Source: Candidatus Parcubacteria bacterium
GTDB taxonomy: Bacteria > Patescibacteriota > Minisyncoccia > Phycocordibacterales > JAKAEA01
Assembly (NCBI GenBank): GCA_019661945.1
Contig: JAIFWI010000001.1
Coordinates: 6,342 to 70,341, forward strand
Direction: 5' to 3'
DNA length: 64,000 bases
Part shown: one piece after another, positions 32,740 through 42,650 of the stretch
How the letters are laid out: every line of letters starts with the position of its first letter
Position numbering within the stretch: the first letter of the stretch is position 1
Position numbers and translations under genes: made by a program
Notes under the pieces: model-generated
What the model saw: only the letters and a program-made list of their open reading frames with translations
What the model was told of the DNA's origin: nothing
Database searches by the model: none

Positions 32740-33057
32740 CCTGGAAAAACGAACACATTGGCACGCCCGCAAGGGCTACCTCGGAGCCAGGGATTACGGC
32801 TCTAGCACGATACAGCATTGAACTGGTCCGACCCTCCGAGACGGAGGAAAATGCTGAAAAGCGGCAGGCGCGAAACAATCCCGGGCGGTGTAATAACCTC
32901 TGGGCAAAGTAGCGCTGAGACTAGGGACTGGCTGTCCCTGCCGATGCATTTTTGAGGCCTGACTGCTTCATCCGCTGTTGAAACTGTTGGAGGAACAGCC
33001 GTCGCGTACACCCATCTTTGAACCCCGCTCGCATGCCTGCTGCGGGGTTTCCTTTTG
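32740..33057 (+). ncRNA. Candidate structured non-coding RNA (~320 nt, GC-rich, unclassified) ending in intrinsic terminator
   Basis: No ORF >95 aa and no RBS; about 57% GC vs <40% flanks; multiple local hairpins (cctccg aga cggagg; gggac tggct gtccc; gctgtt...aacagc) and terminal ccccgc...gcgggg + UUUCCUUUU. tmRNA, RNase P, SRP consensus motifs not found. Confidence 0.3.
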
Positions 33058-33315
33058 TCAAAAATTTGCTTATAAAATAACACAGCCCCTATCTAACGGA
33101 TGGCGGTGCGAGGTCTTTCTGTAAGCTCTTATTTACAGTCTTTATCTTTTCTTGATGAAAATTTTATCTGGTACTGAATATAGCATAATCCCAACTCGCA
33201 AATAAAATACATCATTAATTCATTTCCCTATTCCCAGTACATTTGTTATTTTTCACACACAATATATTGTTATCTGTGGCCGTTATATAGATTTGGGGTT
33301 ATCCGAAATGAGAAA

Positions 33316-34083
33316 ATGCTTGCTTTGATTTGTGTTAAATGCTATATTTTCCCCATGAATAACGACGAGAAGATATTGACGCCTCCCTATCTCTCTGTAA
33401 GGAAGATAGTTGAGATGATTGAATTGGTTTCAAGCAGAAACTACCCAGAGGGTATATCTACCGATTTCTTCAAGAGCAGAGGTTTTAGTTCTGCAGACGC
33501 CACGCTTGCAGTTAATACGCTAAAGTTTCTTAATCTCTTGAAAGAAGATGGCACCCCGACGGAACATATGGAAAAGATGAGAATAAAGGGCGAAGACCGC
33601 AAACCTGAATTTGAGAAAATTATACGCTTGGGTTACAAAAAACTTTTTGATACTGTAGACAGTCCACATGAACTGCCTAAAGATAAACTTGAAACTGAGT
33701 TTATTGCTGTGTACAAACTATCTGATAGAATTGTTGCATCAGCAATACCGGCATTTTATAGATTGTGTATGTATGCTGGTCTCAGAGAAGAGAAAGCAGT
33801 ATCAAAGGCTCCAATTTCAAGAGATGGGAGTGCCAAACCAGCTTTTTCTCCGCAGCCGAAAAAAGCTAATCTCAAAAATCAAGGTGTTTCTGTACGTAAT
33901 GGTTTTTCTGTGTTGCCTATTTCTGGTGGTAAATTTGAACTTCATCTTCCTGAAGAATGGAAGAATCGGCTCCTTGATGAGGAGGATGCTGAAGTGAAGT
34001 GGCGCATTGCAAGAACAGCTTTGAAAAATCTAGCAGATACGCTCAGCAAGGATTCTGATATCAAAGATACAGAGGATAATTAA
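33316..34083 (+). CDS. Hypothetical protein (255 aa)
   Basis: Uninterrupted ORF; no family recognised; followed by ccccc aaaagc ggggg hairpin. Confidence 0.45.
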   Translation: MLALICVKCYIFPMNNDEKILTPPYLSVRKIVEMIELVSSRNYPEGISTDFFKSRGFSSADATLAVNTLKFLNLLKEDGTPTEHMEKMRIKGEDRKPEFEKIIRLGYKKLFDTVDSPHELPKDKLETEFIAVYKLSDRIVASAIPAFYRLCMYAGLREEKAVSKAPISRDGSAKPAFSPQPKKANLKNQGVSVRNGFSVLPISGGKFELHLPEEWKNRLLDEEDAEVKWRIARTALKNLADTLSKDSDIKDTEDN

Positions 34084-34278
34084 GCTTATTAAAAACACAA
34101 TACCCCCAAAAGCGGGGGCATTAGCTTGATTACTCGGAGCCGTTCTACTAAAAACGGGCGGGGTCAGCGACAAACTGATATTTAAACTCGCATAGTGACT
34201 TCGGGCCCGAAGTCTTCCTAAACTACATGTAGTATGAGTAACTTGTCAAAATAGTGCCTCTCCCTTTGTGGATATTGA

Positions 34279-34358
34279 TGCGCCGGTGACGAAACAGGTA
34301 TCTGTTTTGTGAATAGGATGTCTTTCGAGATTTACGGGTTCGAATCCCGTCCGGCGCA
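34279..34358 (+). tRNA. tRNA-like element: intact 7-8 bp acceptor stem and canonical T-arm (ACGGG-TTCGAAT-CCCGT), 6-bp/4-nt D-arm-like hairpin, UUCG variable hairpin, but no canonical anticodon arm (possible pseudo-tRNA / island attachment site)
   Basis: gcgccgg...acgggttcgaatcccgt ccggcgc a; GTTCGAATC T-loop perfect; interior 47 nt cannot form standard anticodon stem-loop. Confidence 0.35.
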
Positions 34359-34442
34359 TACTTGACTTTGTGGCGTAAGTATATTGTAGCATATTTTTTG
34401 ATTTGCTGTCAATGACCTAACTTATTAAGCGTGGATAACTTG

Positions 34443-34856
34443 TTAAAGTTCTCCGCGGTTTGCCTTGCCCACAAATTCTTCTAGGGAAATAATATCTACT
34501 TTCTCACAGTTTTTTAGGTAATCATTAAGTCCACCACCAATGTAAAAATCTCTTAAAGTCCATCCGGCTCCTCCCAAAACAAGATACGCCGAGTGATACT
34601 CACCTTCATTAATTGCTTTAGCCAGTGAGATAATTTCGAAAGGTACTTTCTGTTCAGCTGTACCCCCCACCTGCTGCCACTTAAGGGAAACTAAGTATTT
34701 TTTACCTTGTTTCTCTGCAAGAGCATCAACTTTATGCTTTCTTCCTCCAGGTCGTAAACCAACTAGTACTTGGCCTTTATATGCATATCCGCCTCTCTCT
34801 AATGATGGAATTATCATCTGTTCAAGAACTCCCCCAGTACCAGTATCTCTAGGCAT
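34443..34856 (-). CDS. Small hypothetical protein, putative restriction endonuclease partner of adjacent Dam-family MTase
   Basis: 137 aa, translationally coupled (2-nt gap) downstream of MTase; possible D...E.K (KVDALAEKQGKKYLVSLKW) nuclease-like motif; no firm family call. Confidence 0.3.
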   Translation of the reverse strand: MPRDTGTGGVLEQMIIPSLERGGYAYKGQVLVGLRPGGRKHKVDALAEKQGKKYLVSLKWQQVGGTAEQKVPFEIISLAKAINEGEYHSAYLVLGGAGWTLRDFYIGGGLNDYLKNCEKVDIISLEEFVGKANRGEL

Positions 34857-34857
34857 A

Positions 34858-35691
34858 CTATAAATTTCTAGTTGCTAAAACTTCTTTTGCTTTTGTTCTA
34901 TCCCCCGTAGAATTAATCATACGTGGAGCATCAAGCAATTGTACACTAAATCCATATTTTTTGTAGAGTTTAATAATTCTATCTGTTGCTTGGTTCGAAA
35001 GTACAACAGGACCCTTATGTCTCGATAGCCATTCAGCAGTACGTATTTGGTCATCCCATGTGAATCCTCCAGTGGAATATTGCGTAAATTGTACATCATA
35101 TGGAGGATCTGCATATATAAAGTCTTCAGTTTCGGTATCAAGATTTTCAAAATCTGTATTCATAAATTGCCACTTTGAAAACAACTTTTTATATTCCTCA
35201 AAATCTTGCTTATATGTAACAGTTTTATACTTACCAAATGGTACATTAAACTCACCCTTGCTGTTGAATCTACATAATCCGTTGAAGCCAGTTCTGTTGA
35301 GATAATAAAAAAGTATAGCAGCTTCCTTACTGTTCGAATTATTGGATCGAATGTAATTATTAAAATCTGTACGATATTGGTAATAAAGTTCTTGATTGTA
35401 TTCTAGAGGGATGTTAACCTTCAGGCCCTTTCTTAGGTGTAAATAAAAATTGATTAGATGTTCATTGATATCATTTACTAACGCCCTTTTAGGTAGAAGC
35501 CCAAGGGTCACAGCAAGTCCGCCAGCAAACGGTTCAACTAAGCGTTTCTCCATGTGTGGCATCCACAACTTTATCAACTCTGGAACAAGCCATCGCTTAC
35601 CTCCCGCCCATTTTAAAGGAGGTTTTACACCGACCTCGAGTTTATACTTATCCTTAGTAAATAGTGACATTGTATATTCCATATTTTGCAT
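34858..35691 (-). CDS. DNA adenine methyltransferase, Dam/D12-class (N6-adenine, probable GATC specificity)
   Basis: Motif I LKWAGGKRWL, FxGG (EPFAGGLAV), motif IV DPPY (FIYADPPYD); 277 aa. Confidence 0.85.
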   Translation of the reverse strand: MQNMEYTMSLFTKDKYKLEVGVKPPLKWAGGKRWLVPELIKLWMPHMEKRLVEPFAGGLAVTLGLLPKRALVNDINEHLINFYLHLRKGLKVNIPLEYNQELYYQYRTDFNNYIRSNNSNSKEAAILFYYLNRTGFNGLCRFNSKGEFNVPFGKYKTVTYKQDFEEYKKLFSKWQFMNTDFENLDTETEDFIYADPPYDVQFTQYSTGGFTWDDQIRTAEWLSRHKGPVVLSNQATDRIIKLYKKYGFSVQLLDAPRMINSTGDRTKAKEVLATRNL

Positions 35692-35838
35692 TATTTAGTG
35701 CTTATAAACAACTTTACATTTTAGAATGTTGAGATGAAATTTAAATAAAGAAAGTATGAAGTTTTTAATTTGACTTACCATAAAAACATTGTAATATCTA
35801 TATAGATCAGCAGAGGGGTCCTCAGAAAAGGAGACAAT

Positions 35839-36108
35839 ATGAAAAGGTTTTTGCGGTTTTTGGTTCATGAGCCAATCTTCAAGTTCCTGCCGAAATTTCT
35901 GACCTGGGCCATGTTTGTGATGGTAGCAATACTCGTCCTTGGTGCGCTTCAGGATAATCGAGTTGCTCAAGACATCGTGGATCGACCGGGTGCGATGTTG
36001 ATGTATGTCATTGTTGCGCCAACAGGTGTTGTCTTGATTTCCGCCATTTTTGAGATGTTGTTGGTCATTCCGAAGTACCGGCGCTACTGCCGGGATGGTT
36101 ACTGCTAA
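35839..36108 (+). CDS. Small 2-TM membrane protein, paralog A (GC-rich module)
   Basis: GGAGACAAT-ATG RBS; MKRFLRFL...IPKYRRYCRDGYC; paralogous to 36611..36928. Confidence 0.5.
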   Translation: MKRFLRFLVHEPIFKFLPKFLTWAMFVMVAILVLGALQDNRVAQDIVDRPGAMLMYVIVAPTGVVLISAIFEMLLVIPKYRRYCRDGYC

Positions 36109-36125
36109 GCGAAAGGAGCTCGACA

Positions 36126-36313
36126 TGTTTCATTTGATCGCTGAGCACTGGGTGCTTACGCTATCGATCCTGTGGTTTGTGGCGGTGCTTCTGTCCATCG
36201 TAATCTGCATAGCCGTAAAGTGTCCAAAGTGCGGTTGGTGGCCAATGGGCAGAAGAGGGCATACCTTCCACTGCCTGTGGTGTGGTCATCAGTTCGAAAA
36301 AAAGACCAGTTAA
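36126..36313 (+). CDS. Small membrane protein with C-terminal zinc-ribbon (CPKC...CLWC)
   Basis: AAAGGAG RBS 7 nt upstream; TM helix then CxxC-x13-CxxC. Confidence 0.45.
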
Positions 36314-36315
36314 TC

Positions 36316-36344
36316 AAGCCCGTTCCACTGGAATGGGTTTTTTC
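36316..36344 (+). terminator. Intrinsic terminator (cccgttcc actgg aatggg + U6)
   Basis: Hairpin + TTTTTT; near-identical copy with compensatory changes at 36932-36960. Confidence 0.65.
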
Positions 36345-36447
36345 TTGTACAAATTTTGGTCTAATTCTTAATTTGACTTCCCACAGAGATATTGTAGCCT
36401 TTAGGTAGATAGCCAAAGGGGTCTTTTACAAGCCAGGAGATCGGCCT

Positions 36448-36597
36448 ATGATCCAATTGAAGCCGGGTGCAGGCAGGATGCGGGATTGCATCATAGCCGC
36501 GATTGTACTTGCGGCTGTATTGGGTACTGTAGTCTACCTTACGTACCGTCCCAACGTAGATTGGGATGAGTCCCTCATCAAGACAGTGTCCCCTTAA
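36448..36597 (+). CDS. Very small hydrophobic ORF (49 aa)
   Basis: MIQLKPGAGRMRDCIIAAIVLAAVLGTVVYLTYRP...; single TM; immediately upstream of paralog C RBS. Confidence 0.25.
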   Translation: MIQLKPGAGRMRDCIIAAIVLAAVLGTVVYLTYRPNVDWDESLIKTVSP

Positions 36598-36610
36598 AAA
36601 GGAGTCTCTG

Positions 36611-36928
36611 ATGAAGAAGTTTCTGAAGAATTTCTTTAGTTTCCTGAGGACGGAAGAGGTGCCCGATGCAATGCTGATAGTCTTGATCGCCCTGGCGGTA
36701 GTTGGAACGCTCATGCTCGTCAGTGGAAATTTGGCCGGTGACCGAGCCTCGCAGCTCATTATGAGCAACCTCGCGAGCAGCCTAATCGTTTTGTTTGGTA
36801 TCCCAATTCTCGGGGCTGCTGCGGTAGGCATTCTGATGACGCTCTTCAAGATTCCGAAGTACCTACGCTACCGCAAGGAAGACAGGCTACTGCTAGAAAG
36901 GAGTCGATTCACAAAAGAGATCAGTTAG
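36611..36928 (+). CDS. Small 2-TM membrane protein, paralog C
   Basis: AAAAGGAG RBS; MKKFLKNFF...IPKYLRYRKED; shares N-term MK(R/K)FL and ...IPKY(R/L)RY with paralog A. Confidence 0.5.
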   Translation: MKKFLKNFFSFLRTEEVPDAMLIVLIALAVVGTLMLVSGNLAGDRASQLIMSNLASSLIVLFGIPILGAAAVGILMTLFKIPKYLRYRKEDRLLLERSRFTKEIS

Positions 36929-36931
36929 TCA

Positions 36932-36960
36932 AGCCCGTTCTACCAGGATGGGTTTTTTGT
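36932..36960 (+). terminator. Intrinsic terminator (cccgttcta ccagg atggg + U6), duplicate of 36316 terminator
   Basis: agttagtcaagcccgttctaccaggatgggtttttt vs agttaatcaagcccgttccactggaatgggtttttt: stem changes are compensatory. Confidence 0.65.
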
Positions 36961-37009
36961 TTGACTAACTATTAAGAATGTTGTAATTTATTAGTAGACC
37001 GAGGGGAAT

Positions 37010-37324
37010 ATGGATTCCCTGCCTTATGTTAAGGAGAAGCTCATGAAGCGATCCGAAGACACCAGAACTTACGGAGATGAACACGGCCGGGTCATTCCCC
37101 ACCTGTTCCTGACGAATTCTGCGCTTTGGCCGCCACGGCTTGTCGAGGCGCTCAAAGACCAGATGCGTCTGACACCAGACGAATGCAAGCGGCTCAAGCT
37201 TGGAACGGCCCAGCGACAGGAGTTTGATCAACTCGTTCGGCTCTGGCACGCTTTTGGCGGAGCACAGGAAGCTGAGCAATTCATTCACACTCAATCCGGC
37301 CTAGGCGCCTTTGCCGGCGACTAG
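37010..37324 (+). CDS. Hypothetical soluble protein (104 aa, GC-rich)
   Basis: GAGGGGAAT-ATG RBS; followed by strong terminator. Confidence 0.4.
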   Translation: MDSLPYVKEKLMKRSEDTRTYGDEHGRVIPHLFLTNSALWPPRLVEALKDQMRLTPDECKRLKLGTAQRQEFDQLVRLWHAFGGAQEAEQFIHTQSGLGAFAGD

Positions 37325-37354
37325 AAGCTTTAAGGCAATATCACGAACCCGCTG

Positions 37355-37399
37355 AGCCCGTCCGCGACAACATTTGTACTGTCGCAGGCGGGTTTTTTC
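37355..37399 (+). terminator. Intrinsic terminator (12-bp GC stem + U6)
   Basis: cccgtccgcgaca acatttgtact gtcgcaggcggg tttttt. Confidence 0.7.
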
Positions 37400-37451
37400 T
37401 TTGTCGCAATTTTCTTGCAATTATTGCTTTTATGGTTAGTATTACTTCAGA

Positions 37452-37477
37452 GCACCTGTGTAGGTGCCTGTTTTTTG
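37452..37477 (+). promoter_or_regulatory. Hairpin + U-run in purL leader (gcacct gtgt aggtgc ctg UUUUUU): possible attenuator/second terminator
   Basis: Lies 35 nt upstream of purL ATG, 55 nt after the preceding strong terminator. Confidence 0.3.
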
Positions 37478-37511
37478 ACACGAACGAAAACAACAAACAA
37501 AGGAGGCACAA

Positions 37512-40500
37512 ATGCCACCAATCTATCGCTTCTATCGACAAGTGAGTGAAGATCTCGAATACGGCTTCTACGTTGAGGCCAGCGAGTTTCTGGACGCCGG
37601 AGAGTATCTCCGGCTTGAATGGATCATCGCTGAGACATTTGAACCGACGATGACTCGCCCGGATTCCATCTGGTTTCCGGCCGAAGTCATCGAAATCGGT
37701 CCGCGGCTTTCGATCGAGACTCCGTTCTCATCGAATGCAGTGGCAATTTGTCACAACGCAGGTTTGACCAAGGTCACTCGCTTCGAACGCACTCGCCGCT
37801 ATCGCCTGGCCCCGGGCCAGTCAGTGGCGGATGTGCTCGAAGCCAACCTCGATCGAATGACCGAGCAGCACTATCCCACTGGGATCGTGAGCTTTGAAAC
37901 CGGCCGTAAGCCGGAAGGTGTGCGGGAAATCGATGTCATCGGCAATCCGATCATCGCTCTCCAGAACGCCAACAAAGAGCTTGGCCTTAGCATGGATGCC
38001 AGGGATCTTGCCTATTATGAAGAACTCTTCGCTGACACTCTCGGTCGAAACCCGACCGATGTCGAGCTCCTGAAGCTCGGCAACGACAACAGTGAACATA
38101 GCCGGCACTGGCTCTTCAGAGGAATGCAGATCATCAATGGTGTACGGATGTCGAAGACTCTCTTCGAACTTGTCCAGGAACCGCTGAAGCGGCTCGGCGA
38201 CAACAATGTCAGCCTGGTCGCATTCAGAGATAATGCCGGAGTGATTAAAGGCTTTTGGACTGAGGTGCTGCTGCCGGAAGATCCGGGCCAGCCATCAGTA
38301 CTTCGCCTGACTCGAAAATATGTCCACAATACCGACACGGCCGAAACGCATAATCATCCGACTGGTGTTGCAGCTTTCCCCGGTGCTCAAACAGGTGCCG
38401 GCGGACGGATTCGCGACAACAGTGCGGTTGGATGCGGCGGTCTTCCCGGAATCGGAGTGGCCGGATATTTTGTCGGCAATCTCTTTATTCCAGGGTACCA
38501 GATACCCGGAGAGAATGTTGGACATGACATGCCGTCGACGTACGCCTCACCGCTCACGATTCTTGTCGAGGGCTCAAATGGCGTCACATCGTACGGTAAT
38601 GAATTCGGCGAACCATTGACCCTTGGCTTCACCCGAAGCTTTGGTCAAATGGTTGACGGCAAATGGCGTGAACCGCGAAAGCCGGTGCTCTACAGCGCTG
38701 GTATCGGTTCTATCTTTGATGAACACGTCAAAAAGGAAAAGGCCGAAATCGGCATGCTCATCGTGCGCATTGGCGGCCCGGCTTACCCCATTGGGGTCGG
38801 CGGCGGCAGTGCCTCAAGCATGATGCAAGGTTCGAATACCGAACAGCTTGATTATAATTCCGTTCAACGCGGCAACGCTGAGATGGAAAATCGAGCCAAT
38901 CGAGTCATTCAAGCTTGTGTGGAAATGGGCAGCGAAAATCCCATTTCGAGCATTCACGACCAAGGCGCTGGCGGTCCGAGCAATGTTTTGACGGAGCTCG
39001 TCGAACCGCTGGGCGGCAGAATCAACATTCGCAACATTGTTCTTGGCGACAAGACGATGTCAATCAGAGAAATCTGGTGCGGCGAATATCAGGAAGGCTA
39101 CGGTTTCCTTATCAGAAAAAATCGGATCGAATTTTTCCAATCGATCTGCCAACGTGAGCGGGTTAATTGTGAAATTCTCGGAGAAATCGACGGCAGCGGT
39201 AAAATCGTTGTCGAAGATCCCGATACCGGTACAACGCCGGTAGATCTCAACCTCGACCAGATCCTAACGAAGATGCCTCAAAAGACGTTTGAATCACGAC
39301 GCCAAGAACTGAAGCTCGAACCTCTGGCCCTGCCGGATGTCAGCATCAGTGAAGCAATCAAGGCCGTGTTCAAACTTCTGCAGGTTGGTTCAAAGAATTT
39401 CCTGACAAGCAAAGGTGATCGAAGTGTCGGCGGCAAGGTCGCTCAGCAACAGTGCGTCGGCATCGCTCAGATTCCGATCGCTGACTTCAGCGTCCTAGCC
39501 CAAAGTCACTTTGGTCTGACCGGTGCAGCAGGCTCGATCGGTGAACAGCCGATTAAGATGCTCATTAATCCGGCTGCCGGAGCTCGGATGGCCGTCGGTG
39601 AAATGATTCTGAACATGGCTGGTGTCCGCATTAGTAATCTCGGCGATATTCGTTGTCGGGCAAACTGGATGTGGGCGGCTAAGCTCGAGAACGAAGGCGC
39701 AAACCTCTACGATGCAGCTGTGGCCGCGACCGGTCTCTTGACCGATCTTGGTGCGGCGATTGATGGGGGTAAAGACAGCCTGACGATGGCTGCACGAGTT
39801 CATGGCCATCTGGTCATTGCGCCTGGACAATTGGTGATGCTTGGAACGGCTCCCGTGCCTAACATTACCAAGAAGGTCACCCCTGACATCAAGAAGCCGG
39901 ATGGAAGTTTCCTCTGTCTGATTGATCTCGGTGGTGGCAAAAATCGCCTCGGCGGCGGAAGCTTAGCCCAGGCTAACAACCAAATTGGCAATGAATCACC
40001 TGATGTCGAAAGTTCGCTGCTTCTCAAGAACACGTTTCTTGCGGTTCAGCAGATGATTGACGAAGGAGTGATTCTGGCCTATCACGATCGAAGCGATGGC
40101 GGTCTTTTCACTACCGTCGCCGAGATGTGCATGGCCAGCCGATGTGGCTTTGATCTTCAGGTTAATGATCACCGACATGCTCTGGCTGAACTCTTCAACG
40201 AAGAGCTCGGTGCAGTGATTGAGGTAGCACCGATACACGATAAGCGGGTGCGTGAAATCTGCGAATCGTTTGACGTGCCGATCTCACTCATTGGTGCTAC
40301 GCATGCCGACGGCAAGTGCAGCATTCGAGCGATGTCTTCTGACCATGAGTTGTGGAGTGGCAACATTTCGCTACTGCGTTTGTGGTGGGAGGAGACAAGC
40401 TCGCGGCTTGAAGCTCTGCAGTCGGATCCTGATTGTGCCCGGGCAGAATACCTTGGTCACGTTGACCTTCTGCCTGGAATCAACAGCGCTCCATCATACA

Positions 40501-41354
40501 GACTTCGATTTACACCGGCAGAAACGCCGCCAGAAATTCTCAAAGTCCGAAACAATCCCCGCGTGGCAGTATTGCGCGAGGAAGGTACGAACGGCGATCG
40601 AGAAATGCAGGCAGCATGTTTTGCCGGAGGTCTTGCCGCGTGGGACGTCACCATGAGTGACCTCATCGCAGGCAGGATCGACCTGGACGAATTCCAGGGA
40701 ATCATTTTCGCCGGTGGATTTTCCTTCATGGATGTGCTCGACAGCGCCAAGGGCTGGGCAGCAACAATTCGCTACAACACGCGTGTGCGCGAAATGTTTG
40801 CTCGCTTCTATGGCCGTAAGGACACCTTCTCACTTGGTGTCTGCAACGGTTGTCAGCTCATGGCTCTGCTTGGATTAGTTCCACTCGAAGATCTCCAGGC
40901 TGATATGCAGCCGAGATTTGTGAGGAACGAGTCCCGTCGCTTTGAGTCTCGTTGGGTTCAGGTAGAAGTTTTGCCAAGCCCGGCGATTCTCCTTCGCGGC
41001 ATGGAAGGTTCGAAACTCGGTGTCTGGGCTGCCCATGGTGAAGGCCGACTGGTATATCCAAGCCAGACGGTAGCGGATGTGGTGCGTTTGAGAAATCTTG
41101 CGCCCCTCGCCTTCCTCGATCCCCATGGCAATCAGACTGAAGAGTATCCTCATAACCCGAACGGTTCGCCGGGCGGGATTACAGCCCTCTGTTCGCATAA
41201 TGGGCGGCATCTTGCAATGATGCCTCACCCTGAACGTTGTTTTCGTTTGTGGCAGTGGCCGTGGATGCCGCCCTCATGGAGTAGCCTCAGCGCTTCTCCA
41301 TGGCTCCGGATGTTTCAGAACGCCCGCACGTGGTGTTTGGAACATTCGAAGTAG
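37512..41354 (+). CDS. purL: Phosphoribosylformylglycinamidine (FGAM) synthase, large single-chain type (PurL with fused glutaminase)
   Basis: 1280 aa; N-domain, FGAM synthetase ATP-grasp-like core, C-terminal class I GATase (GVCNGCQLMALLG catalytic Cys); GC ~56%. Confidence 0.9.
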   Translation: MPPIYRFYRQVSEDLEYGFYVEASEFLDAGEYLRLEWIIAETFEPTMTRPDSIWFPAEVIEIGPRLSIETPFSSNAVAICHNAGLTKVTRFERTRRYRLAPGQSVADVLEANLDRMTEQHYPTGIVSFETGRKPEGVREIDVIGNPIIALQNANKELGLSMDARDLAYYEELFADTLGRNPTDVELLKLGNDNSEHSRHWLFRGMQIINGVRMSKTLFELVQEPLKRLGDNNVSLVAFRDNAGVIKGFWTEVLLPEDPGQPSVLRLTRKYVHNTDTAETHNHPTGVAAFPGAQTGAGGRIRDNSAVGCGGLPGIGVAGYFVGNLFIPGYQIPGENVGHDMPSTYASPLTILVEGSNGVTSYGNEFGEPLTLGFTRSFGQMVDGKWREPRKPVLYSAGIGSIFDEHVKKEKAEIGMLIVRIGGPAYPIGVGGGSASSMMQGSNTEQLDYNSVQRGNAEMENRANRVIQACVEMGSENPISSIHDQGAGGPSNVLTELVEPLGGRINIRNIVLGDKTMSIREIWCGEYQEGYGFLIRKNRIEFFQSICQRERVNCEILGEIDGSGKIVVEDPDTGTTPVDLNLDQILTKMPQKTFESRRQELKLEPLALPDVSISEAIKAVFKLLQVGSKNFLTSKGDRSVGGKVAQQQCVGIAQIPIADFSVLAQSHFGLTGAAGSIGEQPIKMLINPAAGARMAVGEMILNMAGVRISNLGDIRCRANWMWAAKLENEGANLYDAAVAATGLLTDLGAAIDGGKDSLTMAARVHGHLVIAPGQLVMLGTAPVPNITKKVTPDIKKPDGSFLCLIDLGGGKNRLGGGSLAQANNQIGNESPDVESSLLLKNTFLAVQQMIDEGVILAYHDRSDGGLFTTVAEMCMASRCGFDLQVNDHRHALAELFNEELGAVIEVAPIHDKRVREICESFDVPISLIGATHADGKCSIRAMSSDHELWSGNISLLRLWWEETSSRLEALQSDPDCARAEYLGHVDLLPGINSAPSYRLRFTPAETPPEILKVRNNPRVAVLREEGTNGDREMQAACFAGGLAAWDVTMSDLIAGRIDLDEFQGIIFAGGFSFMDVLDSAKGWAATIRYNTRVREMFARFYGRKDTFSLGVCNGCQLMALLGLVPLEDLQADMQPRFVRNESRRFESRWVQVEVLPSPAILLRGMEGSKLGVWAAHGEGRLVYPSQTVADVVRLRNLAPLAFLDPHGNQTEEYPHNPNGSPGGITALCSHNGRHLAMMPHPERCFRLWQWPWMPPSWSSLSASPWLRMFQNARTWCLEHSK

Positions 41355-41366
41355 GCTCCGCAGCAG

Positions 41367-41395
41367 AACCCTCGCATACATGCGGGGTTTTTTAT
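41367..41395 (+). terminator. Intrinsic terminator (ccc-u-cgcau ac augcg ggg + U7)
   Basis: Hairpin with 1-nt bulge followed by TTTTTTT after purL stop. Confidence 0.65.
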
Positions 41396-41399
41396 TTGA

Positions 41400-42650
41400 C
41401 TAATGTGCTTCGCCCCAATATGGAATGCCGAGGCGTTTGAAGTCGGGATATTGTTGCGGACCGAATCTTTTATCACGACGTTTGTTTGAGAGAAGTGTGC
41501 GAGCTAGGGTGACGACATCACGGCCAAATTTTTTGGATAATAAATCTATTGTCGAAAATATCGCTCCCCTATTTTCAACTTCCTGGGTCTCGCCAAAAAG
41601 ATCTGGTTGAAATGTTGCGGCTGGAGTGATCGAGCGAAATACTACACCGGTAGCTCGGTAATCATAATGTGGACTGTAAATTTTGTGGAAGTTTTTATGA
41701 ATCTGATCGACTATATCCATCGGATTACTTGTAGCTAATGGTAATGTGACTTCAGTACTTCGGTAAGTGAATTTTTGAGTTTTAATATAGAAGTAAAGAT
41801 GTTTGGTAATAAGATAATGCCTCCGTAATCTTTTGCAGGCTCGTTCAGCATTTTTAGAAAGCTCAGCTAATAAGACTTTTGGATCTTTGGTAATTGGTTT
41901 GAAGGTGCCGGTTTTCATAATGGATTTCTGATCATCCCGCTCATCCTCATGCACTCGTAAAATACTCCGGCCATTTAATTCATGCCAAATTTCTTCATAG
42001 GGTTTGGAAAGATTTTCACGAATCCACCATTCAGGTTTTTGAATAAATTCGAGAGCGATGCGAACGCCATGTTTCATTAAGTTGGCCGAGCCGCTTGGAC
42101 CAATGCCCCAAATTTTTCCCACTAGCATTTTTTCCAGAAATTGAGGGATATCTTTTTTTTCAAGGACGGTAAATCCAGATGGCTTGTTCCATTTTGATGC
42201 CACTTTAGCCAACACTTTTGTTGGCGCCAGGCCAATGGAAAATGTCATGCCCAAGTCTCGCTCGAGGTCTCGTTTGATATTTTTTGCAGCCTGAACAGCA
42301 GCCTCACCCCTTTCCCCTCTCCTTGACAGGAGAGGGGTTAAATCCCCAAAGCACTCATCAATACTGTACTCCTCAACCATCGGCGCATACCTGCGGACTA
42401 TTGAGTACATCCTCTGGGCATAGGTGCGATAAGTATCATAATGCGACAGAGTGATAATTGCCTCTGGACAAATTTTCTTAATTTCACCGATAAGCATGCC
42501 GCGGCTAATACCCCGTTTTTTGGCCTCATATGACACAGCTAAAGCAATACTACGGTCAGCCCCTGCCACAACAGGCTTGCCTCGAAATGCTTCATTTTGA
42601 GCGATTTCACACGAGGCAAAGAAAGCATCACCATCGATGTGGAGGATCAT
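41400..42650 (-). CDS. dinB: Y-family DNA polymerase IV (DinB-like translesion polymerase)
   Basis: MILHIDGDAFFASCE (catalytic Asp), SIDECFGDLT, little-finger domain; 416 aa; last gene of LexA-box operon. Confidence 0.85.
   Translation of the reverse strand: MILHIDGDAFFASCEIAQNEAFRGKPVVAGADRSIALAVSYEAKKRGISRGMLIGEIKKICPEAIITLSHYDTYRTYAQRMYSIVRRYAPMVEEYSIDECFGDLTPLLSRRGERGEAAVQAAKNIKRDLERDLGMTFSIGLAPTKVLAKVASKWNKPSGFTVLEKKDIPQFLEKMLVGKIWGIGPSGSANLMKHGVRIALEFIQKPEWWIRENLSKPYEEIWHELNGRSILRVHEDERDDQKSIMKTGTFKPITKDPKVLLAELSKNAERACKRLRRHYLITKHLYFYIKTQKFTYRSTEVTLPLATSNPMDIVDQIHKNFHKIYSPHYDYRATGVVFRSITPAATFQPDLFGETQEVENRGAIFSTIDLLSKKFGRDVVTLARTLLSNKRRDKRFGPQQYPDFKRLGIPYWGEAH

What the first reader, a model, noticed from the sequence alone, without database searches (positions are those of the whole stretch)
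34279..34358. Non-canonical tRNA-like element with perfect acceptor/T-arm but no anticodon arm
The element reads gcgccgg-(47 nt)-acggg ttcgaat cccgt-ccggcgc-a, with a textbook GTTCGAATC T-loop and a 7-8 bp acceptor helix. The interior forms a 6-bp/4-nt hairpin (aaacag guau cuguuu, a tRNA-Sec-like D-arm geometry) and a UUCG-capped hairpin. No 5+7+5 anticodon stem-loop can be placed. It could be a pseudo-tRNA marking an integration site, a tRNA-like regulatory/decoy RNA, or a fragment of a permuted tmRNA.
Basis: seen in the sequence. Interest (0 to 1): 0.5.

Follow-up and report, generated by a model that had tools for sequence, protein, structure and literature searches.

The report
Broken copy of odd tRNA gene
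The element is a tRNA gene that has lost six bases and with them one side of its D-arm; its intact relatives form an unusual, apparently undescribed family of leucine-shaped tRNAs that carry a threonine anticodon.

Summary
The 79-nt element (window 34280-34358, + strand) is real, but it is not a tRNA-like RNA without an anticodon arm. It lies in a Candidatus Parcubacteria (CPR) genome. It is the ortholog of an 83-89-nt tRNA found about 100-200 nt downstream of a DUF5343 gene in eight related lineages.

The intact relatives have a long variable arm, a tRNA-Leu-type D-arm, A15:U48, A73 and a UGU (Thr) anticodon. Their cloverleaf is strongly supported by covariation. The window copy lacks six bases (CACGUA in its closest relative). 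That removes the end of the D-loop, the 3' strand of the D-stem and nucleotide 26. The anticodon arm survives (UCUGU-UUUGUGA-AUAGG), but a 9-bp alternative hairpin is 11.8 kcal/mol more stable.

- ARAGORN finds nothing at default settings.
- It calls tRNA-Thr(tgt) at relaxed settings, and at default settings once the six bases are put back.
- tmRNA, tRNA-Sec and att-remnant readings are rejected.

Most likely this is a recently disabled tRNA gene. The family is the interesting part. It has a Leu-type body with Thr or Ala anticodons, a long structured leader, and neighbouring winged-helix genes. ACA still reads as Thr in these genomes.

The parts
34280..34358 (+). The element: a 79-nt D-stem-deleted tRNA(UGU) gene with no encoded CCA.
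   Evidence: Rfam RF00005 scores 37.7 bits. The family model R1 scores 71.7 bits. The element aligns to orthologs in A2 and A5.
34280..34286 (+). Acceptor stem, 5' strand (GCGCCGG). It pairs with 34351-34357 (CCGGCGC). The discriminator A73 is at 34358.
   Evidence: There are 7 perfect pairs. All seven acceptor pairs show compensatory changes across the family. A73 is invariant.
34289..34300 (+). D-arm remnant ACGAAACAGGUA: the 5' strand of the D-stem plus the D-loop with A14, A15, G18, G19, U20 and A21. The 3' strand is missing. The deletion junction lies between 34300 and 34301.
   Evidence: The window shows a gap of 6 columns in A2 and A5. Relatives have CACGTA, TCCGTA or similar there.
34301..34317 (+). 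Anticodon arm: stem UCUGU/AUAGG (two G.U pairs), loop UUUGUGA, anticodon UGU at 34308-34310.
   Evidence: Supported by the Infernal alignment, by ARAGORN -ps, and by homology with covarying stems in relatives.
34289..34310 (+). Competing 9-bp hairpin (A10-U31, GUAU loop) created by the deletion. It sequesters the 5' strand of the anticodon stem and the anticodon.
   Evidence: The MFE is -34.0 against -22.2 kcal/mol for the cloverleaf-like fold. Pair probability is about 1.0 for the hairpin and about 0 for the anticodon stem.
34318..34333 (+). Long variable arm (AUGUCUUUCGAGAUUU) with the hairpin GUCU-UUCG-AGAU. U48 is at 34333.
   Evidence: A variable-arm hairpin is present in all relatives, in shifted register.
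34334..34350 (+). T-arm: ACGGG-UUCGAAU-CCCGU.
   Evidence: The T-stem covaries in the family.
34084..34279 (+). Conserved structured leader between the DUF5343 stop codon and the tRNA. A long closing helix (about 34098-34125 with 34245-34277) encloses hairpins at 34163-34179 and 34197-34214.
   Evidence: RNAalifold and pair counts on 5 lineages give 90% of cells paired. 17 pairs show compensatory changes, against 1-5 in slid controls. The window keeps 51 of 55 pairs.
33355..34083 (+). DUF5343 gene (242 aa), a winged-helix protein. It is the conserved upstream neighbour of the tRNA.
34443..35691 (-). Variable 3' flank of the tRNA: a type II R-M pair, a PD-(D/E)XK nuclease (34443-34856) and a Dam-family D12 methyltransferase (34858-35691).
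   Evidence: Relatives carry different genes at this position.

Best explanation
The element is a tRNA gene that has been damaged by a 6-nt deletion.

Shown. It is the ortholog of an unusual, lineage-restricted tRNA found downstream of DUF5343 in related Parcubacteria. Intact members are 83-89 nt long. They have a tRNA-Leu-type body: a 3-bp D-stem, the D-loop GAAYUGGUA, A15:U48, a long variable arm and A73. Their anticodon loop is UUUGURA, giving anticodon UGU, which reads ACA (Thr). The window copy has lost the end of the D-loop, the 3' strand of the D-stem and nucleotide 26. In the closest relative that stretch reads GGUA[CACGUA]UCUG. The acceptor stem, T-arm, variable arm, anticodon stem and anticodon loop are all kept.

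Inferred.
- The deletion arose by slippage between the two GUA triplets.
- The gene is or was transcribed together with the roughly 195-nt structured leader, cut by RNase P and RNase Z, and given CCA after transcription.
- Without a D-stem, and with a 9-bp hairpin that swallows the anticodon, the RNA cannot adopt the L-shape efficiently. It is therefore most likely a recently inactivated tRNA gene.
- Because ACA is a common Thr codon in this genome, a working tRNA(UGU) must exist elsewhere in the genome if this copy is dead.
For: Detection:
- Rfam tRNA hit above the gathering score, with the anticodon arm placed.
- ARAGORN finds nothing at default settings. It calls tRNA-Thr(tgt) at relaxed settings, and at default settings once CACGTA is restored.

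Orthology:
- The DUF5343 protein is 100% identical to a Candidatus Parcubacteria protein.
- Homologs at 37-68% identity carry an intact 83-89-nt tRNA(tgt) 100-200 nt downstream on the same strand, in 8 of 10 lineages.
- Large-scale synteny between the window and L003: CysRS-S41...DUF5343-tRNA...M23-GluRS.

Family structure:
- Cloverleaf: 99.5% of cells paired, 15 of 20 pairs with compensatory changes, slid controls no higher than 43%.
- The window has a 6-column gap exactly at the 3' strand of the D-stem.
- The family model scores intact members 83-100 bits and the window copy 71.7 bits.

Folding: -22.2 kcal/mol for the cloverleaf-like fold against -34.0 for the hairpin fold, with an anticodon-stem probability of about 0.

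Codon use: ACA makes up 15.5 of every 1000 codons. It aligns with Thr and not Leu in orthologs.
Against: - Apart from the deletion, nothing looks decayed. The acceptor and T stems are perfect, the anticodon loop is canonical (U33, G37), and the leader keeps 51 of 55 consensus pairs. So the copy may still be under selection, or the deletion may be very recent.
- Two window-specific D-loop changes (C16, A17) both strengthen the new hairpin. This could hint at selection for the new fold.
- No second tRNA(UGU) is seen, but only 64 kb of the genome is available.
- D-arm-less tRNAs do function in animal mitochondria.
- The deletion could be an assembly or population variant in a metagenome-assembled genome; this cannot be checked here.
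Confidence: 0.62

Rival explanations
1. It is still a working tRNA(UGU) that operates without a D-stem. The D-replacement loop keeps G18 and G19 for the elbow contact, as in D-arm-less mitochondrial tRNAs.
For: - The acceptor, T-arm, variable arm and anticodon loop are intact.
- The leader is intact.
- ACA is a frequent codon.
- There is no other tRNA in the 64-kb window.
- Relaxed ARAGORN and its mitochondrial mode both fold it as tRNA-Thr(tgt).
Against: - D-arm-less tRNAs are not known in bacteria (own knowledge; the review PMC7609411 describes them only for mitochondria).
- The cloverleaf-like fold is 11.8 kcal/mol less stable than the hairpin fold.
- All 11 other family members keep a covarying D-stem.
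- Leu-type recognition depends on D-arm tertiary structure (established knowledge of E. coli LeuRS identity).
Confidence: 0.13
2. After the deletion the RNA was co-opted as a tRNA-like RNA: an acceptor/T minihelix plus a 9-bp hairpin. It could act as a decoy or ligand for CCA-adding enzyme, RNase P, EF-Tu or a defence protein, and would not decode.
For: - A very stable alternative fold, z-score -4.08.
- C16 and A17 are window-specific and complete the hairpin.
- The neighbourhood is defence-like: a PDC-M34A homolog and an R-M system.
- The leader is conserved.
Against: - Only one genome is known with this form. No second sequence shares the deletion, so there is no comparative support.
- Two substitutions are weak evidence, and C16 also occurs in intact members (L014, L029).
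Confidence: 0.13
3. The 6-nt deletion is an assembly or consensus artefact of the metagenome-assembled genome, and the real gene is an intact family member.
For: - The source is a MAG.
- Restoring 6 nt yields a default ARAGORN tRNA call.
Against: - Short-read assemblies rarely create clean 6-nt deletions in unique sequence.
- The deletion is flanked by GTA direct repeats, which fits a biological slippage event.
- Several further lineage-specific substitutions accompany it.
Confidence: 0.07
4. It is an att remnant or integration scar, a partial tRNA copy left by a mobile element.
For: The 3' flank is variable: an R-M system here, and an integrase, UDG or IS1595 in relatives.
Against: - Both halves of the tRNA are present, in orthologous position, with the conserved leader.
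- The 3' half is not repeated in the window.
- The defect is internal, in the D-arm, and not a 5' truncation.
Confidence: 0.03
5. It is a fragment of a permuted tmRNA, or a tRNA-Sec-like gene.
For: Only the superficial 6-bp/4-nt hairpin and the long extra arm.
Against: - ARAGORN finds no tmRNA in any mode.
- There is no Rfam tmRNA or tRNA-Sec hit even at E <= 5.
- The acceptor/T geometry is 7/5, not 8/5.
- The anticodon is UGU, not UCA.
- The orthologs are ordinary cloverleaves.
Confidence: 0.01

Closest known systems
Bacterial tRNA-Leu (class II tRNA)
   Same: - Same body in the family: U8, a 3-bp D-stem, the D-loop GAAYUGGUA with G18 and G19, A15:U48, a long variable-arm hairpin, a 7/5 acceptor/T geometry and an invariant A73.
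- The family model scores true tRNA-Leu genes at 58-66 bits. That is as high as, or higher than, long-arm tRNA-Thr genes that share the exact anticodon loop.
   Different: - The anticodon is UGU (Thr), or UGC (Ala) in L002 and L031, never a Leu anticodon.
- ACA behaves as a Thr codon in these genomes.
- The window copy also lacks the 3' strand of the D-stem.
nev-tRNAs of nematodes (PMC3333845, PMC4300185)
   Same: Leu-type class II tRNAs with a conserved A73 that carry anticodons of other amino acids. They are leucylated in vitro because LeuRS ignores the anticodon.
   Different: - They are eukaryotic and nematode-specific, with Gly or Ile anticodons.
- The family here is bacterial (CPR, and a Gemmatimonadetes MAG), with Thr or Ala anticodons.
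- Charging has not been tested here.
- The family here is linked to a structured leader and winged-helix genes.
tRNAProX family of Streptomyces and Kitasatospora (PMC10404621, PMC11415595)
   Same: [quoted passage not shown]
   Different: - tRNAProX has a Pro body, A34 and A33, and is co-encoded with a dedicated ProRSx.
- Here the body is Leu-type with U34 and U33. No synthetase gene lies next to it; the neighbours are DUF5343 or HARE-HTH genes.
D-arm-less mitochondrial tRNAs (reviewed in PMC7609411)
   Same: The window copy has a D-replacement loop instead of a D-arm, while keeping the acceptor, anticodon and T arms.
   Different: - Those are mitochondrial and have co-evolved partner proteins.
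- Here the loss is a one-off 6-nt deletion in a single bacterial genome. All relatives keep the D-stem.
allo-tRNAs (PMC5389517)
   Same: Non-canonical long-variable-arm tRNAs with unexpected anticodons, found in metagenomes.
   Different: allo-tRNAs have an 8/4 or 9/3 acceptor/T geometry and Ser-type identity. This family is 7/5 with A73.

Membership tests
tRNA (Rfam RF00005 / canonical cloverleaf) | Score at or above the curated gathering threshold | tested here: met
   37.7 bits against a threshold of 29.
tRNA (Rfam RF00005 / canonical cloverleaf) | 7-bp acceptor stem, and a 5-bp T-stem with a GTTCRANYC loop | tested here: met
   All 12 pairs are Watson-Crick and the T-loop is UUCGAAU.
tRNA (Rfam RF00005 / canonical cloverleaf) | 5+7+5 anticodon arm with U33 and a purine at position 37 | tested here: met
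   The arm at 34301-34317 is UCUGU/UUUGUGA/AUAGG. It has two G.U pairs and is disfavoured against the alternative hairpin.
tRNA (Rfam RF00005 / canonical cloverleaf) | A D-stem of 3-4 bp closing the D-loop | tested here: not met
   The 3' strand is deleted (a 6-column gap in A2 and A5). ARAGORN at default settings finds no gene.
Leu-type class II tRNA(UGU) family of Parcubacteria ('group A', defined here) | Sequence and structure match to the family covariance model | tested here: met
   71.7 bits, against 83-100 for intact members and 66 or less for any other tRNA. Caveat: the window sequence was one of the 10 sequences used to build the model.
Leu-type class II tRNA(UGU) family of Parcubacteria ('group A', defined here) | Position downstream of DUF5343 on the same strand, behind a homologous structured leader | tested here: met
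Leu-type class II tRNA(UGU) family of Parcubacteria ('group A', defined here) | Complete cloverleaf with a covarying D-stem | tested here: not met
   The D-stem is absent only in the window copy.
tRNA-Leu (identity for LeuRS, E. coli rules) | A73, A14, A15:U48, and G18/G19 placement in a class II body | tested here: met
   These columns are invariant in A2 and A5. The D-arm is nearly identical to that of true tRNA-Leu genes.
tRNA-Leu (identity for LeuRS, E. coli rules) | A Leu anticodon, or decoding of Leu codons | tested here: not met
   The anticodon is UGU. ACA aligns with Thr and not Leu.
tRNA-Leu (identity for LeuRS, E. coli rules) | Leucylation by LeuRS | not testable with these tools
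   This needs an in vitro charging assay or tRNA-seq of charged species.
tRNA-Thr (identity for ThrRS, E. coli rules) | G35 and U36, plus G1-C72 and C2-G71 | tested here: met
   All are present in the window copy. Across the family, pairs 1-72 and 2-71 are not invariant: A-U in L020 and L030, U-A in L029.
tRNA-Thr (identity for ThrRS, E. coli rules) | Class I architecture (4-5-nt variable loop, 4-bp D-stem) | tested here: not met
   The variable region is 16 nt with a hairpin, and the D-arm is Leu-type.
tRNA-Sec | 8/5 acceptor/T geometry, a 6-bp D-stem and a UCA anticodon | tested here: not met
   The geometry is 7/5 and the anticodon is UGU. The apparent 6-bp stem is the deletion-induced hairpin.
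tmRNA (standard or permuted) | A tRNA-like domain plus a tag reading frame, detected by ARAGORN or Rfam | tested here: not met
   No tmRNA is found in the window or on the element in any mode.
att remnant of an integrated element | A partial tRNA (3' half) repeated at the far end of an island, with a full copy elsewhere | tested here: not met
   The element has both halves. There is no repeat of the 3' 16-22 nt in the same orientation.
allo-tRNA | 8/4 or 9/3 acceptor/T configuration | tested here: not met
   A 7/5 configuration is supported by covariation.

The most novel reading that the evidence does not exclude
The element's family would be a previously undescribed class of bacterial dual-identity tRNAs. 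The body is Leu-type and carries every known LeuRS determinant, and it bears Thr (UGU) or Ala (UGC) anticodons. The tRNA is made from an accessory module: a winged-helix gene (DUF5343/PDC-M34A or a HARE-HTH protein), then a long closing-helix leader, then the tRNA. On this reading these tRNAs are charged with Leu, or are kept out of normal translation by the leader. They would act as regulated mistranslators or as non-translational tRNAs, perhaps linked to defence. The window copy would be a variant locked into a tRNA-like hairpin form.
Probability: 0.25. Interest if true: 0.8.

Novelty: new variant of a known kind. Interest (0 to 1): 0.5.

Why it matters
Taken alone, the window element is a damaged tRNA gene, which is ordinary. 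It shows that a single 6-nt slip can hide a tRNA from standard finders and create a convincing 'tRNA-like' hairpin.

Its intact relatives matter more. Class II (long-arm) tRNAs in bacteria are thought to be limited to Leu, Ser, Tyr and Sec. Here a Leu-type body with an invariant A73 carries a Thr anticodon, and in other phyla an Ala anticodon, although ACA is still read as Thr.

There are two possibilities:
- ThrRS in these CPR bacteria charges a Leu-shaped tRNA. That would be a new identity solution.
- LeuRS charges it. That would make the family a bacterial counterpart of the nematode nev-tRNAs and the Streptomyces tRNAProX mistranslators.

Both can be tested directly with the sequences listed here. 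The conserved structured leader and the link to winged-helix genes suggest regulated production.

Tried and rejected
- Permuted or standard tmRNA: ARAGORN in tRNA+tmRNA mode, relaxed mode and mitochondrial mode finds none. Rfam finds none at the gathering threshold or at E <= 5.
- tRNA-Sec: rejected on geometry and anticodon.
- att remnant: searches for repeats of the 3' 22 and 16 nt, and for direct repeats in 33000-37600, found only a chance 2-mismatch hit on the opposite strand inside purL.
- Exact-protein look-ups of the nuclease, MsrA and P0001: not on record.
- The one genome-contig scan (acceptor plus T-arm pattern) did not find the source genome. It returned an archaeal tRNA-Gly and the Gemmatimonadetes UGC variant.
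- Viral collection: no long-arm UGU/UGC tRNA and no DUF5343 relative.
- Reassignment of ACA to Leu: rejected. ACA aligns with Thr just as ACC does, and almost never with Leu.
- A relationship between DUF5343 and the small HARE-HTH proteins found upstream of other family members: none by hhalign.
- Literature searches for long-arm tRNA-Thr, Leu-body tRNAs with Thr or Ala anticodons in bacteria, DUF5343 and PDC-M34: nothing relevant beyond nev-tRNA, allo-tRNA and tRNAProX.

Full report
**Observation.** The window bases 34280-34358 read GCGCCGG UG ACGAAACAGGUA UCUGU UUUGUGA AUAGG AUGUCUUUCGAGAUUU ACGGG UUCGAAU CCCGU CCGGCGC A. The acceptor stem and T-arm are perfect. The first one extends to 9 bp (A10-U31, loop GUAU). 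The MFE is -34.0 kcal/mol with a z-score of -4.08. ARAGORN finds no tRNA or tmRNA anywhere in the 64-kb window. Rfam's tRNA model does match the element end to end, at 37.7 bits against a gathering score of 29. Its alignment contains a rudimentary D-arm, an anticodon arm UCUGU/UUUGUGA/AUAGG (anticodon UGU), and a 14-nt insertion in the variable region. The claim that no 5+7+5 arm can be placed is therefore wrong. The rest of the description holds, apart from a start coordinate that is one base early.

**Context and source.**
- Upstream on the same strand lies a DUF5343 gene (33355-34083; Pfam E = 1.8e-19). It also matches the PADLOC candidate defence protein PDC-M34A (E = 1.1e-18).
- Downstream and convergent lies a type II R-M pair: a PD-(D/E)XK nuclease and a Dam-family methyltransferase.
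- The DUF5343 protein is 100% identical to an NCBI protein of 'Candidatus Parcubacteria bacterium'. The window is therefore from a CPR bacterium.
- The exact source genome is in neither the gene-position index nor the species-representative genome set.

**Relatives.**
- DUF5343 homologs at 68, 65, 55, 55, 46, 37.5 and 37.5% identity were traced to contigs (tblastn).
- In each of these, an 83-89-nt tRNA lies 100-200 nt downstream on the same strand. ARAGORN calls it tRNA-Thr(tgt), and Rfam scores it at 50-55 bits.
- Two more distant DUF5343 loci, L016 and L040, lack it. The linkage therefore holds in 8 of 10 lineages.
- The window and L003 also share large-scale gene order: CysRS-S41 ... DUF5343-tRNA ... 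M23-GluRS. The locus is orthologous, not a chance resemblance.

**Anatomy of the family.** All ten sequences share these features:
- a 7-bp acceptor stem, U8 and G9;
- a 3-bp D-stem, and a D-loop with A14, A15, G18, G19, U20 and A21;
- a 5-bp anticodon stem and the loop UUUGURA;
- a long variable-arm hairpin, U48, a 5-bp T-stem and an invariant A73.

The cloverleaf is strongly supported. 99.5% of cells are paired, and 15 of 20 pairs show compensatory changes. With the partner slid by 1-3 columns, pairing is 43% or lower.

The body is Leu-type. The D-arm (UGGCGGAAYUGGUAYACGC) is almost identical to that of true tRNA-Leu genes found in the same data. A covariance model of the family scores tRNA-Leu genes at 58-66 bits. 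That is as high as, or higher than, a second group of long-arm tRNA-Thr(UGU) genes that share the identical anticodon loop.

**What happened in the window.** Against the closest relative (L038...GGUA CACGUA UCUGC UUUGUAA ACAGA...), the window reads ...GGUA ------ UCUGU UUUGUGA AUAGG....
- Six bases are missing: the end of the D-loop, the 3' strand of the D-stem and nucleotide 26.
- The lost block lies between two GUA triplets. This fits replication slippage (inference).
- Everything else is kept and remains paired.
- The deletion brings ACGAAACAG next to CUGUUUUGU.
- The cloverleaf-like fold costs -22.2 kcal/mol against -34.0 for the hairpin fold. In the ensemble the anticodon stem has a probability of about 0.
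- ARAGORN, run locally, finds nothing at default settings. It calls tRNA-Thr(tgt) at relaxed thresholds, and also at default settings once CACGTA is re-inserted. It reports no tmRNA in any mode.

**Does the family decode Thr or Leu?**
- ACA is a common codon: 15.5 per 1000 in the window and 17.9 per 1000 in L003.
- In orthologs compared between the window and the L003-type genome, ACA codons align with Thr encoded by other codons. The counts are 38 of 87 and 18 of 75. They align almost never with Leu, at most 2 (counts are inflated about threefold by near-identical loci, but the ratios hold). ACC behaves the same way. ACA is therefore read as Thr, and there is no code change.
- Whether this tRNA is the ACA decoder, charged by ThrRS through G35 and U36, or is leucylated cannot be decided here. 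Leucylation is plausible because it has all the E. coli-type LeuRS determinants (A73, A14, A15:U48, G18/G19) and LeuRS ignores anticodons.
- Two observations argue against a plain housekeeping role. First, the same body occurs with a UGC (Ala) anticodon and G3-C70 in a Gemmatimonadetes MAG (L002, 93.6 bits) and in another contig (L031). Second, the neighbours are accessory genes: DUF5343/PDC-M34A; small coiled-coil HARE-HTH proteins in L002, L020, L030 and L035; IS1595 transposases; R-M systems; and an integrase.

**Leader.**
- The 185-197 nt between the DUF5343 stop codon and the tRNA are conserved in five lineages. They fold into one domain, closed by a helix of about 24 bp that ends a few bases before tRNA position 1.
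- 90% of cells are paired, and 17 pairs show compensatory changes against 1-5 in slid controls.
- Many invariant G.U pairs indicate that the structure forms on the + strand.
- The window keeps 51 of 55 pairs.
- Non-homologous leaders of the other family members also form a long closing helix directly in front of the tRNA.
- No Rfam family matches.

**Verdict.** The element is a real, orthologous, D-stem-deleted copy of an unusual tRNA. It is most likely a recently inactivated gene (confidence about 0.6). The less likely alternatives are a still-working D-arm-less tRNA, a co-opted tRNA-like RNA, or an assembly artefact. The tmRNA, tRNA-Sec and att-remnant readings are rejected.

**Comparison with what is known.** The closest known systems are:
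- bacterial tRNA-Leu, for the body;
- nematode nev-tRNAs (PMC3333845), which are Leu bodies with foreign anticodons;
- the actinomycete tRNAProX family (PMC11415595), which are bacterial dual-identity tRNAs with Ala, Asn or Thr anticodons;
- D-arm-less mitochondrial tRNAs (PMC7609411), for the window copy's shape.

The literature searches found no description of a Leu-type class II tRNA with Thr or Ala anticodons in bacteria, nor of DUF5343. I rate the element itself as ordinary and the family as a new variant of a known kind.

Noticed in passing
window 34084-34279 (+): The roughly 195-nt spacer between DUF5343 and the tRNA is a conserved structured RNA. A closing helix of about 24 bp encloses several hairpins, with compensatory changes across 5 lineages, and no Rfam family matches. 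Non-homologous leaders of other family members have the same 'long closing helix then tRNA' layout.
   Followed up: partly
window 34163-34179 (+): A leader hairpin whose stem covaries (GUCAG/CUGAU against GGGAG/CUCCC) has a conserved 7-nt loop RSACAWA (here CGACAAA). ACAAA is complementary to U32-U36 of the tRNA's own anticodon loop, so a kissing contact is possible. The motif is absent from the other leader types, so this may be coincidence.
   Followed up: partly
L002 1851-1936 (Gemmatimonadetes MAG JAHWJJ010000266) and L031 4799-4881(-): The same Leu-type class II body (L002 has an acceptor stem and T-arm identical to the window's) carries a UGC (Ala) anticodon and lacks the G3:U70 needed by AlaRS. 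In L002 it lies downstream of a HARE-HTH protein.
   Followed up: partly
L017, L018, L022, L023, L025, L026, L027, L028, L034: A second group of long-variable-arm tRNA(UGU) genes has Thr-like acceptor stems (GCCGAU/GCUGAU) and U or C at position 73. They sit inside dense tRNA arrays, with up to 27 tRNAs plus a tmRNA in 12 kb (L025). In L025 the long-arm gene is the only Thr tRNA; L026, L027 and L034 also carry a normal-length Thr(GGU) or Thr(CGU) tRNA, but no other UGU one. L025 also has over-long His (86 nt) and Asn (91 nt) tRNAs and a tRNA with a 4-base anticodon (catg).
   Followed up: no
window 34412->34383 (-) and 34123->34098 (-): A near-consensus sigma-70 promoter-like site lies on the minus strand just 3' of the tRNA (TTGACA-18-TACAAT, with TG). 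A minus-strand terminator-like hairpin with a T-run lies at the far end of the leader. Together they could define an RNA of about 285 nt antisense to the tRNA and leader.
   Followed up: no
window 37512-41354 (+) and the profile over 36001-42000: The single-chain large purL gene and its surroundings have 50-53% GC, against about 40% for most of the window. This suggests horizontal acquisition.
   Followed up: no
window 35762-36968: Two diverged tandem copies (73-83% identity, spacing about 600-780 nt) of a unit with small membrane or zinc-ribbon ORFs and a terminator-like hairpin (AAGCCCGTTCCACTGGAATGGGTTTTTT).
   Followed up: no
L003 7003-7550: A GC-rich stretch of about 550 nt with no called gene lies directly 3' of the intact tRNA in the L003-type genome. 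It is followed by a UDG gene and a tyrosine recombinase. It may be a structured RNA or the end of an integrated element. There is no Rfam hit at the gathering threshold.
   Followed up: no
L020 1468-2466(-), L035 1194-2108(-), L014 2567-3460(-): IS1595-family transposase genes lie immediately next to the tRNA module in three independent lineages. They are about 100 nt downstream of the tRNA in L020 and L035.
   Followed up: no
L040 944-2615 and L016 95-3199: More distant DUF5343 genes lack the tRNA. Instead, one overlaps a 318-aa ORF of unknown function (L040), and the other sits beside an EcoRI-like nuclease and a D12 methyltransferase (L016). This fits a defence-island protein.
   Followed up: partly
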